Assembly: GCA_041640655.1 (NCBI GenBank)
Contig: JBEPZV010000001.1
Coordinates: 32,001-96,000 of the forward strand
DNA: 64,000 nt
Direction of reading: 5' to 3'
Source of the DNA: a bacterium
Lineage (GTDB): Bacteria > Acidobacteriota > Blastocatellia > HR10
Both the position numbers and the translations under genes were made by a program. Of the stretch, positions 5,383-48,671 are shown one piece after another. Numbering within the stretch: the first letter of the stretch is position 1; each line of letters starts with the position of its first letter. The notes beneath the pieces are model-generated. The model was given only the letters and a program-made list of their open reading frames with translations. It was not told the DNA's origin and made no database searches.

Positions 5383-6132
5383 TCAGTTTGCCTGAGACCG
5401 TCGAACACCGATAGCAATGATGATCTTCCCCGGAGTGTAGGTCGTGCCGTTGACCGAGACCTGACGACCGCCCGCGAGTCGGGCCCAACCGCGAATGAGC
5501 GTGATGTTGGGATAGACATCCATCACGTTGATGTATTTGCCCTGCCGCAGTGCCGCCACCAACTCATCCTTCTGCTCGATGACGCGCCGCCAATCCGACG
5601 GCGGCGGGCAGGCGGTGAGTCCTTCGAATTTCGGATAGGCGGAGCGGTAGCAGAGCTCCGCCGCTTTGATCAATGTCTTCGAGGGCACGCAGCCGATGTT
5701 CACACAAGTGCCGCCGATGGTGCCGCCCTCGACAATGGCCACGTTCGCGCCCAACTCTGCGCCTTTGATCGCGGCCGCAAACGCCGCCGACCCGCCGCCG
5801 ATGATCATGAGATCGTAATCGGCGCCTTCCGGCTTCGGTGCTCGACGCTCCCCTTCCACCGGGGTCCCCATGCGATCTATAGATCGCATGGGGTGCCCGA
5901 GTGGTCGTCGTTCGCGCACCAGCGCGCGATAGCCCGCGTCTCTGACGGCGCTCATCAACGCTTCATCAGCGACCGCCGTTTCAGCGATGACCGTGGCGTG
6001 CCCCGAGCGCCAGCCGGGCACGTGAGCTTCCACACCCCCCATGACGCCCTTCAACGCCTCGGTCACATGCCGGGCGCAACCGTCGCAGGTCATCCCTTCA
6101 ATGCGTAAAGTGAGATGTGTTCTTTCCGTCAT
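5383..6132 (-). pseudogene. merA: Mercuric reductase-like gene (HMA plus start of FAD domain), truncated at ~250 aa
   Basis: GMTCDGC HMA domain, IIGGGSAAFAAA, GGTCVNIGCVPSK; stops just after KIIIAIG; NADPH/dimerisation domains and C-terminal CC missing. Confidence 0.8.
5861..5898. repeat. 38-bp palindromic element, in-frame in the merA linker
   Basis: GGGGTCCCCATGCGATCTATAGATCGCATGGGGTGCCC; identical to 25845-25882. Confidence 0.9.
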
Positions 6133-6145
6133 TTTACCGACCTCC

Positions 6146-7198
6146 TCAGGTCTGATTTTCTTCAGAAACATAGCCTGCACATCCATCACCAGAAGTTCTC
6201 GCATCCGCAAACCATGCGGCGGTTGGCGCAGTGACCGGCTGGACTCGTCGCTTGGCTACGGCTGAGAAAACAATCAAACTCGGAATTTCCAGCACCGGCT
6301 CGATCAACTGGCTGAGAGCCACGACCGGATGCGCGGGAAACAAGACGACCGCCAGCGGCAGCGCCAGCGGCGAGTTCCGCGCCGTGGTCGTACAGGCCAG
6401 GGCGATGAACCTCTCTCGTGGATAATGCAGCCACCGGGACACGAGCCAGGACAAAGAGAAGGAGATCAGATAGAAGCTCAGCATGGGTGGTCCCATCCTC
6501 AGAAAGAGGGTCGGGCGCTTCAGCACGATCTCCCCATGGCTGGTGAACATCGCCATCACAGTCAGCGCCAGCGCCGCAAAACCGAGCCGAGTTAGCCGCC
6601 CGGACACGGCCACCCGCGGACGACGCCAGCGCACGAGTTGCGCGGCCACAAGCGGAATCGCCACATACAGGGCGAAAGCCCGCGCCAACGTGCTCAGGTC
6701 CACCGGCATCAGGGTTTGCGTGAAGACCAACAAGTAGACCGGCAGCAAGACGAGTTGGAGAATCAGATTCCATGGCAACAGCGCCAGATTGCGGTGCACG
6801 TCGCCCCCGGCCAAGTCGGTGAAGATCAGGTACCAATCAGTGCAGGGAGTAATGAGCGCCAGCACCAGTCCCACCCAGAGCGCCGGCTCATCCCGCAGGA
6901 ACACCCAGCCCAAGCAAAAGGCAATGAGCGGCGTACTCACAAAGTTCAATCCCACCGCCGTCAAAAGGTAGCGCCAATCGCGGGCGGCCTCCCGGAGCCG
7001 TCCCAGTGACACGCGGGCGAAGAGCGTAAACAACACAACCATCAAAAAAGGCGTAATGAGTCGTTGAGCTCCATCTTCCGCTCCAGGTAGCCACACGGCC
7101 AAGCCCACGCCAACGGCTGCCGCGCCCAGCAAGACTGCTGGTTCAGCCAGATCTCGCACAAGGTGAGAGAGCATGATCGCCTCATTCCGTTGTTTCAT
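6146..7198 (-). CDS. ACR3/bile-acid:Na+ symporter-family arsenic resistance protein
   Basis: Multi-TM; ITPCTDWYLIFT, LLPWNLILQ, ARNSPLAL, EPVLEIP. Confidence 0.8.
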   Translation of the reverse strand: MKQRNEAIMLSHLVRDLAEPAVLLGAAAVGVGLAVWLPGAEDGAQRLITPFLMVVLFTLFARVSLGRLREAARDWRYLLTAVGLNFVSTPLIAFCLGWVFLRDEPALWVGLVLALITPCTDWYLIFTDLAGGDVHRNLALLPWNLILQLVLLPVYLLVFTQTLMPVDLSTLARAFALYVAIPLVAAQLVRWRRPRVAVSGRLTRLGFAALALTVMAMFTSHGEIVLKRPTLFLRMGPPMLSFYLISFSLSWLVSRWLHYPRERFIALACTTTARNSPLALPLAVVLFPAHPVVALSQLIEPVLEIPSLIVFSAVAKRRVQPVTAPTAAWFADARTSGDGCAGYVSEENQT

Positions 7199-7240
7199 CG
7201 AATCACCAGTTTCTCCTGATCCTCAACAAGGGCTGAAAGA

Positions 7241-8080
7241 TTACGTCAGAAACATAGCATGCACAATCATCACCGTTCCAACCAGGACGAAGAGAAGCGA
7301 CAGCCCTCGTTTCAGCGCCTCCGATTCGATGTGGCTGGCCAGATAGCTCCCCAATTGCCCGCCGAGGATGGCACCGGGAATGGTCCAGAGAGCAAGGTTC
7401 CAAACGGGCCGACCAACAAGGACGCGCGTGCTGGCCCCCGCCATGACGGTCAGGGCCATGGTGAACACAGCCGTCGCCGCCGCGATGCGAACGGGAATTT
7501 TGCAACGGAGCACCATCGCCGGCGTGTTCAGTTCGCCGCCGCCGATGGCGACCAGCCCCGACCCTAATCCGGCGAGCACGCTGATGCCCAGGAGTTGTCC
7601 TCGCCGACACACCCGGTACGAGAAGACTCGACCCTGACGATCAATGAGCGTGCGCACGCCGGGCGATCCAGGATTCCGTATCACCTCCTGAGTGACGAGG
7701 GCGGTCTCGCTCGGCGAGCGATAGAGCAACCACGCGATGAGCAAGATAGCCCCGCCGAAAATCATCTGGAGTAAAGCCCCCGGTGCCCGCACCGACAGCC
7801 ATGACCCGAGAATCGCTGCTGGCACAGCTCCCAGGGCCAAAAACAATGCCAGTTTGTAGTCTATCAGCTTGCGCCGCCCGTAGCCGATGACGCCGCTCGA
7901 CATGCTGAAGACTTCGGTGACCAACGCCGTTCCAATTGCCGCTTCCGGTGATAATTTCAGCACCAGGATGAAAAACGGCCCGCAGACGACATTGCCCCCG
8001 ACACCGCCCATGATCGTCATCGTGCAGCCGAGCACCACAACCGGGAAGGCAAACCAGTACTCGGTGAGGTACTCAATCAC
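7241..8080 (-). CDS. Sulfite exporter TauE/SafE family protein
   Basis: GVGG...P, AIGTAL, GLVAIGGG...P, GAILGGQLG repeats; about 8 TM. Confidence 0.85.
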   Translation of the reverse strand: MIEYLTEYWFAFPVVVLGCTMTIMGGVGGNVVCGPFFILVLKLSPEAAIGTALVTEVFSMSSGVIGYGRRKLIDYKLALFLALGAVPAAILGSWLSVRAPGALLQMIFGGAILLIAWLLYRSPSETALVTQEVIRNPGSPGVRTLIDRQGRVFSYRVCRRGQLLGISVLAGLGSGLVAIGGGELNTPAMVLRCKIPVRIAAATAVFTMALTVMAGASTRVLVGRPVWNLALWTIPGAILGGQLGSYLASHIESEALKRGLSLLFVLVGTVMIVHAMFLT

Positions 8081-48248: not shown

Positions 48249-48279
48249 CCCTCCTTGCAGGAAGATCCTCAGCGCCCGT

Positions 48280-48618
48280 TCACACGGCCGACTCCCCGCG
48301 CTCGCCCGTTCGGATGCGAATCGCCTCCTCCACGGGGAAGATGAAGATCTTCCCGTCGCCAAACCTTCCAGTTCGCGCCGTCCGGAGGATGGCCTCCACG
48401 GCGGCCTCCACAAGCTCATCGGGAAGCACGATCTCGATCTTCACCTTGGGCAAGAAGTCGGTCGTATACTCGCTCCCCCGATACATCTCCGTATGTCCCT
48501 TCTGCCGACCAAAGCCTCGAACTTCGGTCACCGTCATGCCCATGACGCCGATCTCCTGAAGGGCATTCTTGACGGCATCCAGCAGGTGAGGTCGGATGAT
48601 GCTCTCGATCTTCTTCAT
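48280..48618 (-). CDS. glnK: P-II nitrogen regulator
   Basis: [33 protein letters not shown]; 112 aa, adjacent to amtB. Confidence 0.93.
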
Positions 48619-48633
48619 CGTTACCCTCCACAC

Positions 48634-48671
48634 GGAGCCCCCATGCGATCCGGAGATCGCACGGGGCACTC
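48634..48671. repeat. Palindromic element variant between glnD and glnK
   Basis: GGAGCCCCCATGCGATCCGGAGATCGCACGGGGCACTC. Confidence 0.7.

What the first reader, a model, noticed from the sequence alone, without database searches (positions are those of the whole stretch)
5861..48671. 38-bp palindromic element that inserts in-frame into protein-coding genes
Seen: consensus GGGGTCCCCAYGCGATCNNNAGATCGCRTGGGGTGCCC at 5861, 13315, 13575, 13657 (partial), 17358, 25596, 25845, 26521, 29548 and 48634, plus short forms at 12620 and 17820. Five full copies lie inside coding frames. Paralogs in this window show exact 14-aa gains: Crp LCRHT[PHGVPRRSIDRLGG]PQV vs LCARRPQV, and MerR FD[PNGVPTRSPNRVEC]PRVIER vs YDPRVIER. 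Removing 14 aa also restores ISVR|LEVGGMTCGGC in the HMA domain and gives QGER|LEAVD in DUF3179. The element is read in different frames and both orientations, and stem changes are compensatory (CAT/ATG, CAC/GTG, CAG/CTG). Established analogy: Rickettsia palindromic elements and REP/MITE elements. Inference: a tiny non-autonomous mobile element whose 42-bp net insert is tolerated in proteins.
Basis: partly seen in the sequence, partly recalled or inferred. Interest (0 to 1): 0.85.

Follow-up and report, generated by a model that had tools for sequence, protein, structure and literature searches.

The report
Tiny mobile hairpin inserting into genes
A 42-base hairpin-forming DNA repeat has copied itself into and between genes of a hot-spring acidobacterium, usually adding 14 amino acids in frame; this resembles the known Rickettsia and REP repeats, but it leaves no clean target duplication, shares its end motifs with repeats in other Acidobacteria and in phages, and the enzyme that moves it is unknown.

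Summary
All 12 copies lie where stated, and related genomes carry empty sites, 42 bp shorter in 20 of 26 clean comparisons. The scan already reported this element on other DNA of this genome (e1-1066348/49/50, e1-7675252).

Corrections:
- Two of the five in-frame hosts (merA, merR) are broken genes; three look intact.
- There is no fixed target duplication: a 2-bp repeat at 7 of 50 sites. The best reading is a 42-nt unit inserted bluntly into a CCNN^ or ^NNGG target, not 38+4 or 40+2.

New here: its frame, GGGGTCCCC-hairpin-GGGGTG, recurs with freely covarying stems in other Acidobacteriota and phages (27 copies in one complete 134-kb phage). There it nests in other REP-like repeats and adds core+7 (±1) bases.

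No Y1/RAYT, IS110, reverse transcriptase, IS607 TnpA or integron integrase tracks the element. The likeliest mechanism is single-stranded hairpin transfer with IS200/REP-like target logic by an unidentified enzyme (about 45%); the main rival is host template-switch copying (about 30%). No paper describing it was found in my searches.

Verdict: new variant of a known kind (RPE/REP-like).

The parts
5859..5900 (+). Full 42-nt copy (38-nt core 5861-5898), in frame on the minus strand in the linker between the HMA and reductase domains of a truncated merA (5383-6132)
   Evidence: empty site 42 bp shorter in G002 and G005
12620..12639 (-). Short form (inner hairpin deleted), in frame in the linker of an intact merT-HMA gene (12128-13012)
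   Evidence: +8 aa vs G005, +10 aa vs G002
13313..13354 (-). Full copy, in frame in a degenerate, frameshifted merR
   Evidence: G005 ortholog 42 bp shorter
13575..13613 (+). Decayed copy with a 5-nt loop, non-coding, upstream of the broken merR
   Evidence: no orthologous site found
13657..13689 (+). Partial copy with an internal deletion, non-coding
   Evidence: (18 bits); not tested for an empty site
17356..17397 (+). Full consensus copy, in frame on the minus strand just before the first HMA domain of an intact merT-2xHMA gene (16953-17801)
   Evidence: empty in G002 at DNA level; proteins of G001, G002, G003, G005 lack the 14 aa
17820..17839 (+). Short form upstream of the merT-2xHMA start codon; shared with G002, absent in G005
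25594..25635 (-). Full copy, in frame in the C-terminal part of DUF3179 paralog a (24716-25828)
   Evidence: empty in G002, G005 and in contigs of runs X5 and X13 (42-nt skip 25593-25636)
25843..25884 (+). Full copy just downstream of the DUF3179a stop; shared with G002, absent in G005
26519..26560 (-). Older, decayed full copy upstream of DUF3179 paralog b; shared with G002, absent in G005
29546..29587 (+). Full copy, in frame between helix B and helix C of an intact Crp/Fnr regulator (29191-29922); modelled as a low-confidence loop
   Evidence: model pLDDT <50 at residues 119-129 between helices 107-115 and 131-158
39759..39796 (-).
   Evidence: Weight-matrix score 21.4, where the simulated genome gave nothing above 10; not tested further
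48632..48673 (+). Older full copy between the glnD stop (48676) and the glnB start (48618); shared with G002
   Evidence: no empty site seen

Best explanation
What it is (about 93% sure): a selfish, non-coding 42-nt element, xC-GGGGTCCCC-[12-bp stem, 4-nt loop]-GGGGTG-CCCG-y, that is gained at new sites and adds 14 codons when it lands in a gene. It has no stop in any frame, except that some loop variants (e.g. TATA) carry a stop in two of six frames. How it most likely moves (inferred, about 45%): as one folded strand, by a trans-acting strand-transfer enzyme with IS200/IS605-REP-like logic. The enzyme would recognise the conserved frame and the kept 2x2 mismatch, not the inner stem. It would cut a target after a CCNN tetranucleotide that resembles the element's own last four bases (CCGy), on either strand, and join the unit bluntly without a target duplication. 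Shown: gains against empty sites, modal size, absence of a fixed duplication, target bias, structure, frame conservation across lineages. Inferred: the single-stranded intermediate, the guide role of the 5' GGGG, the enzyme, and neutrality of the 14-residue loops.
For: Net +42 at 20 of 26 sites with a clean empty ortholog: 11 of 13 coding and 9 of 13 other sites, so 42 is intrinsic and not only selection for frame. One pair has 50 of 50 identical flanking bases (L173 filled, L165 empty). A 2-bp direct repeat occurs at 7 of 50 sites (3.9 expected) and 6 of 35 perfect-core copies. At 14 empty sites the two outer bases on each side match the target (14, 13, 12, 12 of 14), while the inner left base x does not (5 of 14, chance 3.4). 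The inner right base y follows the loop subtype (24 of 51 same-loop pairs vs 14.6, p 0.008), as an inherited base would, and x and y avoid pairing (2 vs 10.1 expected, p 0.0007). Targets carry CC four bases before the cut (19 of 50) or GG after it (14 of 50), rarely both (3), against 9% background each. In IS608 the first two guide bases cross-pair with the first two target bases, and target and right end are similar tetranucleotides (PMC5934647, passages); a GGGG guide would predict CC there. A stem bulge is required for E. coli REP cleavage (PMC8266576, passages); here the 2x2 mismatch is kept (GG 67, TT 61 of 76). In other Acidobacteriota only the frame is kept, and copies sit inside hairpin repeats with net core+6 to +8.
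Against: No Y1/HUH transposase was found in G000, G002, G005 or G006 (own profile best E 3.5), beside the repeat in 30 Y1 loci (0 of 30), or in 29 viral records that carry the frame. The genomes are 73-97% complete. At empty sites y equals the target base before the cut in 10 of 14 (chance 5.5, p 0.006), which could be a 1-bp duplication; across all 50 sites the same match is 20 vs 15.6 (p 0.10). Six of 26 sites deviate (39, 40, 40, 41, 44, 45). 20 of 50 sites have neither CC nor GG. In the other families the bases before the cut are not CCNN, so the guide rule does not generalise. x does not follow the loop subtype (p 0.37). No empty allele was listed in contigs of the two same-species runs X3 and X4, so current activity is not shown.
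Confidence: 0.47

Rival explanations
1. No dedicated enzyme: the hairpin is copied to nearby microhomologous sites by template switching or recombinational repair, with co-conversion of a few flanking bases, like yeast mitochondrial GC clusters. The flank bias then perpetuates itself.
For: No candidate mobiliser tracks the element. Copies cluster: 19 of 26 lie on contig C1, 7% of the assembly (p 7e-17). Near copies share loops in G005 (13 of 26 pairs vs 3.2, p 0.00015). Some neighbours carry reverse-complement loops. Tandem, nested and internally deleted forms occur. A complete phage holds 27 copies, 22 on one strand, without Y1. GC42 shows co-conversion tracts (PMC4478555, passages).
Against: Loop sharing is not significant in G000 (6 of 39 vs 4.3) or G002 (1 of 4). 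The size is sharply modal at 42 even outside genes (9 of 13). An asymmetric frame kept across lineages while stems drift freely points to protein recognition. Clustering may only reflect a permissive accessory region.
Confidence: 0.3
2. A minimal MITE: a 40-bp C...G element with imperfect terminal inverted repeats, moved by a DDE transposase (e.g. IS5-like) with a 2-bp target duplication that is often corrupted at the inner base. This matches the '40-base' reading in the earlier notes.
For: C at -1 (45 of 50) and G at +1 (38 of 50) extend the outer stem. The pooled target is roughly dyad-symmetric. IS5-like and IS481-like fragments lie on C1 and C38. At 14 empty sites the right dinucleotide equals the target in 9.
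Against: Both sides equal the target in only 4 of 14; the 2-bp repeat is at 6 of 35 perfect-core copies. CC and GG rarely occur together at one site (3 of 50). No half-sites flank a transposase. The transposase hits are below family cut-offs. Relatives in other families lack the outer inverted repeat.
Confidence: 0.15
3. The copies are host-selected functional sites (protein-binding or RNA-stabilising hairpins, or beneficial protein loops) rather than selfish DNA.
For: Several copies sit at gene boundaries (17820, 25845, 26521, 48634) and some are shared with G002. Structure is conserved.
Against: Patchy presence at orthologous sites, six different peptides, insertion in broken genes and in other repeats, quick decay to short forms, and 0-1 exact-frame copies in four 94-98% complete genomes of the genus.
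Confidence: 0.06

Closest known systems
Rickettsia palindromic elements (RPE); seen as passages of PMC10969869 and PMC3733652; the Ogata papers were not read
   Same: Palindromic non-coding repeat found in frame inside unrelated protein genes and between genes.
   Different: 42 nt instead of about 150 nt; no sequence likeness tested or seen; a free-living thermophile lineage; only about 26 copies, strongly clustered.
REP / REPIN elements with RAYT (TnpA-REP), GTAG- and CGTC-tagged families, TIRtrons (PMC3733652 section 16 and passages; PMC6006769, PMC8266576, PMC3116915 passages)
   Same: Size class, conserved tag at the 5' foot of a GC stem, kept stem mismatch, intragenic copies, dimers and clusters; CGTC repeats also lack a dedicated transposase.
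   Different: Tag is GGGG(T), not GTAG or CGTC, and not the TIR motif GGGGWSAS; a single hairpin is the gained unit; no Y1 gene beside it or in the genomes richest in it here.
IS200/IS605 peel-and-paste elements (IS608; PMC5934647 passages); their non-autonomous PATE derivatives are recalled, not read
   Same: No target duplication; target tetranucleotide resembles the element's last four bases; a GGGG guide would predict the CC seen.
   Different: One hairpin instead of separate left and right ends; both strands appear to serve; loose target; no TnpA found.
Yeast mitochondrial GC clusters (GC42; PMC4478555 passages)
   Same: 42-nt GC-rich palindrome, presence/absence between close relatives, stems conserved and loops variable, altered flanking bases, no known mobiliser.
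   Different: Organelle element with AG/ACT direct repeats; a different sequence (one 32-nt cluster shares the 9-mer GGGGTCCCC, which I take as chance).
Small dispersed repeats (SDR) of cyanobacteria, Elhai et al. 2008 (recalled; paper not held)
   Same: Recalled as very small repeats that insert in genes and in each other.
   Different: Recalled as 21-27 nt and cyanobacterial; not compared by sequence.

Membership tests
RPE-like intragenic palindromic repeat (as a behaviour) | Dispersed palindromic repeat inserted in frame in unrelated genes whose orthologs lack it | tested here: met
RPE-like intragenic palindromic repeat (as a behaviour) | The insert is translated in a working protein | not testable with these tools
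   No RNA holder listed. Intact frames and synonymous excess are compatible but do not separate intact from broken hosts. Model shows a loop.
Rickettsia RPE families (membership) | About 150 bp, Rickettsia-specific sequence | tested here: not met
   Unit is 42 nt; no Rfam family in the window; size from PMC10969869
REP / RAYT system | GTAG/GTGG or CGTC tetranucleotide at the hairpin foot | tested here: not met
   Logo shows GGGG-T before the stem
REP / RAYT system | Y1 transposase gene flanked by the repeat | tested here: not met
   No PF01797 hit in G000, G002, G005, G006; 0 of 30 Y1 loci hold the frame within 1.5 kb; four more Y1 genes are flanked by other repeats, with a frame copy 1.1-1.3 kb away
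REP / RAYT system | 20-40-nt GC hairpin with a conserved stem irregularity | tested here: met
IS200/IS605 non-autonomous derivative | No target duplication; insertion 3' of a tetranucleotide predicted by a guide 5' of the hairpin | tested here: inconclusive
   No fixed duplication and CC bias fit; 20 of 50 sites lack the motif; other families do not follow it
IS200/IS605 non-autonomous derivative | Separate left-end and right-end hairpins shared with an autonomous IS | tested here: not met
   One hairpin; no half-sites around a gene; the TnpB elements present are IS607-like and are targets of the repeat
MITE (DDE-mobilised) | Fixed-length target site duplication | tested here: not met
   2-bp repeat 7 of 50, 4-bp repeat 2 of 50
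MITE (DDE-mobilised) | Terminal inverted repeats shared with a transposase-coding IS | tested here: inconclusive
   Imperfect terminal repeat present; no matching IS in a 90% complete assembly
Integron attC site / cassette | RYYYAAC ... GTTRRRY core sites (motif recalled) and a co-occurring IntI | tested here: not met
   Element lacks the cores; the integron on C1 has its own attC-like sites; strong IntI hits are missing from G002, G005, G336, G344

The most novel reading that the evidence does not exclude
The element is one lineage of a widespread, unpublished class of minimal mobile hairpins, defined by the frame GGGGTCCCC-stem-GGGGTG plus a linker of about 7 nt. It moves as a tiny single-stranded circle or dumbbell by crossover at 2-4 nt of microhomology, using an enzyme outside the Y1, DDE, IS110, RT, serine and integron families, or only host and phage replication proteins. 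It parasitises other repeats, guide-RNA regions, phage genomes and protein loops.
Probability: 0.25. Interest if true: 0.8.

Novelty: new variant of a known kind. Interest (0 to 1): 0.52.

Why it matters
How very short palindromic repeats (RPE, CGTC-type REP, SDR, GC clusters) move without a linked transposase is an open question. This family offers filled and empty pairs in near-identical strains, a sharp size rule, a testable target rule, and a complete phage with 27 copies. If the intact hosts are expressed, it is also a recurring natural source of 13-14-residue loops in proteins of free-living bacteria. The in-frame behaviour itself is known from Rickettsia and Opitutus, and this scan has already met the element, so the surprise lies in the junction rule and the missing enzyme.

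Tried and rejected
Mobiliser searches, all negative or non-tracking:
- Y1/RAYT: 0 in G000; in the genus only one weak hit, in G003; 0 of 29 viral records.
- IS110 and reverse transcriptase: 0 of 8 genomes of the family each.
- IS607 serine TnpA: intact only in G006 of 5.
- TnpB: 5 of 7 genus genomes, but 0 of 26 family-f36 genomes, many of them rich in the frame.
- Integron integrase: does not track.
- Half-sites around a gene: none.
- ORFs shared among loci bearing the frame: no recurrent mobility gene beyond TnpB. PHROGs on 21 of 42 ORFs from the held stretches of the 27-copy phage gave none.

Boundary models rejected: 38+4 and 40+2 duplications; a C|C cut that carries donor flank on the left (target bases match up to two bases before the element). 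A 41+1 reading is not excluded.

Other:
- No RNA holder listed.
- Contigs of X3 and X4 list no 42-nt skip (24 joints not shown, and contigs drop rare alleles).
- Contig graph and GC skew did not place the cluster relative to origin or terminus.
- Branch-wise synonymous/non-synonymous counts did not separate intact from broken hosts.
- Local loop sharing held in G005 only.
- G429 (46 frame matches) is a different composite repeat and is not counted as the element.
- Plasmid search gave only weak matches (E 0.2 or worse); the exact 35-nt pattern had 0 hits in viral contigs.
- Rows dropped: 31 of 78 sites had no short ortholog in the DNA held; of 47, 21 were dropped for poor flanks or because the short site held a remnant or a full copy. 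One kept row (13315) was scored against the merR paralog of G002.
- Literature: ten searches and the text supplements of PMC3733652 and PMC6006769 gave no description; figure-only lists of repeats could not be seen.
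Full report
Observation. The 38-nt pattern has six matches within three mismatches in the window and none in 100 shuffles. The genome (3.13 Mb, 90% complete) has 26 weight-matrix hits against 0 in a simulated genome, plus about eight short forms with the inner stem deleted (9 hits including one palindromic double count, against 3 in the reversed genome). 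Nineteen of the 26 lie on contig C1, which is 7% of the assembly. Rfam has no match in the window. The unit folds into a 12-bp inner stem with a 4-nt loop, a 2x2 mismatch and a short outer stem. Among 76 independent sites the mismatch is kept (GG 67, TT 61), the loop varies freely, and one stem pair shows four Watson-Crick types. Quasi-palindrome correction could produce such compensation without selection (my inference).

Host. Named public records with the exact pattern are two 'Bacterium HR' draft genomes and one Pseudomonadota MAG. HR10 is an order of Blastocatellia, Acidobacteria (PMC8787282, passages), and close Crp homologs are labelled Acidobacteria. Runs that hold the window are mostly hot-spring metagenomes. 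At three mismatches the element is in 4 of 61 related genomes, all of the same genus: G000 14, G005 19, G002 7, G006 3, and 0 in G001, G003, G004. G003 has one copy with a 5-nt loop.

Mobility. G002 and G005 are syntenic over much of the window. From them, the own genome and 45 metagenome loci I collected 121 copies at 78 independent sites. Forty-seven had a short orthologous site. Twenty-six of these had good flanks and no remnant; the net gain was 42 bp in 20 of them (11 of 13 coding, 9 of 13 other), and 39, 40, 40, 41, 44 and 45 in the rest. Outgroup proteins lack the residues (16 of 16 Crp homologs; four MerT-2HMA orthologs), so these are gains. Other orthologous sites hold deletion remnants of a copy. 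Contigs of two unrelated runs skip the same 42 nt in DUF3179a. Nested and tandem copies occur, and one metagenome locus has two insertions in the 3' non-coding region of an IS607-type tnpB, where G000 is empty.

Coding insertions. A dicodon score of 20 G000 sites coding and in frame; the same score of 400 random positions coding, so it misses genes (it missed merR and one further in-gene copy), and about half the copies are intragenic. All six frames are used. In the window, Crp, merT-2HMA and DUF3179a look intact, and the short form at 12620 is in frame in an intact merT-HMA. merA ends after 244 residues (554 in G002) and merR is frameshifted. In the Crp model the insert is a low-confidence loop between two helices (mean pLDDT 69, residues 119-129 under 50). 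Synonymous changes outnumber or equal replacements on the G000 branch of the insert-bearing genes tested with an outgroup (merT-2HMA 9:5, DUF3179a 15:7, merT-HMA 9:9), but also in the truncated merA (13:4), so this does not prove function. Tolerance is likely but not shown.

Junctions. The logo on 50 good sites gives C at -1 (45), G at +1 (38), C at -6 and -5 (31, 33) and G at +5 and +6 (26, 30). A 2-bp direct repeat is present at 7 of 50 sites and 6 of 35 perfect-core copies, a 4-bp one at 2 of 50. At 14 sites with a close empty ortholog, the outer two bases on the left equal the target in 14 and 13, the outer two on the right in 12 and 12, the inner left base x in 5 (chance 3.4), and the inner right base y in 10 (chance 5.5, p 0.006). 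y follows the loop subtype (p 0.008), x does not (p 0.37), and x and y avoid complementarity (2 vs 10.1, p 0.0007). CC on the left (19) and GG on the right (14) seldom occur together (3; 5 expected if independent, so only a trend); 20 sites have neither. The simplest reading is a 42-nt unit joined bluntly after CCNN on either strand, with a preference for targets that resemble its own end, CCGy. A 41-nt unit with a 1-bp duplication is not excluded. IS608 inserts 3' of a tetranucleotide that resembles its right end and is read by a guide 5' of the hairpin, with cross-pairing of the first two bases (PMC5934647, passages). A GGGG guide predicts the CC seen. That match is suggestive, not a test of the enzyme.

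Wider family. The frame GGGGTCCCC-N(8-30)-GGGGTG has nine or more exact matches in 18 of 400 sampled genomes of the phylum, each with at most one match to the reversed control; one of the 18 (G429) is a different composite. It is in 39 of 41 genomes of one genus of the same class. Stems differ by lineage and covary. Most copies inspected sit inside other REP-like repeats. For 17 of 145 copies an empty host was held; in the 14 informative ones the gain was core+6 to core+8, most often +7 (32 to 39, 35 to 42), the same as here (35 to 42). One copy reads in frame, about 13 residues, in an open SRAP-like reading frame of G344 (name recalled; no ortholog aligned). In viral contigs 57 of 72 matches fold with at least 8 paired bases. 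One complete 134-kb phage has 27 copies, 22 on one strand, two of them in one 786-codon frame. In the Pseudomonadota MAG the same 38-mer is the centre of a 316-bp inverted-repeat element and two related copies. Earlier scan notes e1-2126401 and e1-5262075 describe cross-phylum hairpins of this size; their sequences are hidden, so identity is untested.

Mobiliser. None of the tested families tracks the element: Y1/RAYT, IS110, reverse transcriptase, IS607 TnpA, TnpB, integron integrase. Only sub-threshold IS5-like and IS481-like pieces remain in G000. The assemblies are incomplete, and a mobiliser may have been lost, so this is not proof of absence. CGTC-tagged REPs also lack a linked transposase (PMC3733652, section 16).

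Mechanism. I put about 45% on enzyme-assisted transfer of a folded single strand with IS200/REP-like target logic, 30% on host template-switch copying with co-conversion (as proposed for yeast GC42, PMC4478555, passages), 15% on a minimal DDE-driven MITE, and the rest on host function or other routes. Clustering fits either local movement or a permissive accessory region (C1 also carries an integron and IS remnants); loop sharing among neighbours was significant in G005 only.

Comparison and novelty. It works like an RPE or an intragenic REP (PMC10969869, PMC3733652, PMC3184786, passages). It fails the membership tests for RPE families, GTAG/CGTC REPs with RAYT, and MITEs. Ten literature searches and the text supplements of two REP surveys gave no description of the frame; figure-only lists and subscription papers, including Elhai 2008, were not seen. 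The scan had already reported this element four times on other DNA of this genome. My additions are the junction analysis, the broken hosts, the core+7 rule and the negative enzyme survey. Verdict: real, mobile, a new variant of a known kind; interest 0.52.

Noticed in passing
window 24716-25828 and about 26640-27642 (+): Both DUF3179 paralogs have an in-frame TGA (25025-25027 and 26998-27000) in a U-P-x-C motif, and the frame continues into the rest of the domain: probable selenoproteins. No SECIS search was done.
   Followed up: partly
window 5383-6132 and 12128-18357 (-): Mercury or heavy-metal cluster with two merR, two merT-HMA fusions and two merA-like genes; one merA is cut at 244 residues and one merR is degenerate, while G002 and G005 keep a full merA.
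   Followed up: partly
L320 (G000 C1 about 7,000-16,000), 16-25 kb before the window: Integron with two 92%-identical integron integrase genes (TIGR02249 479 and 485 bits) and attC-like sites between small cassette-type genes.
   Followed up: partly
L302 (G000 C1 28,690-30,240): IS607-type remnant (start of tnpA plus a full tnpB) that splits a gene resembling 6-phosphogluconolactonase (name recalled); a second such remnant lies on C27.
   Followed up: partly
L147:1990-2100 and L157: The repeat has inserted twice in the non-coding region 3' of a tnpB (its presumed guide-RNA scaffold); L157 looks like a deletion between two such copies. Effect on the guide RNA unknown.
   Followed up: partly
G477 (loci L183, L184, L186, L192, L213, L226, L235, L244, L250, L252): Complete 134-kb phage with 27 copies of the frame, 22 on one strand, 26 of them in the first 84 kb; no Y1 transposase.
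   Followed up: partly
L023:1317-1632; L019; L020: A 316-bp element with 25-bp terminal inverted repeats in a Pseudomonadota MAG carries the same 38-mer at its centre; possible transfer between phyla or a binning error.
   Followed up: partly
L119 (G344 C1 1,629,700-1,630,600) and L120 (G336 C1 3,320,900-3,321,500): Y1 transposase genes flanked by arrays of their own palindromic repeats; in G336 one such repeat carries the frame element while three others are empty.
   Followed up: partly
window 9303-10052 (-), 29191-29922 (+), 45853-46656 (+): Three Crp/Fnr-type regulators in one window.
   Followed up: no
G000 C2 110,170-127,720: A 17.5-kb tandem array with a period near 66 bp, consistent with a very long CRISPR array; not examined.
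   Followed up: no
G000 C3 13,100-13,400 and similar stretches on C11, C21, C26, C27, C28, C29, C41, C92: A second dispersed repeat of about 150-290 bp at 76-94% identity; not examined.
   Followed up: no
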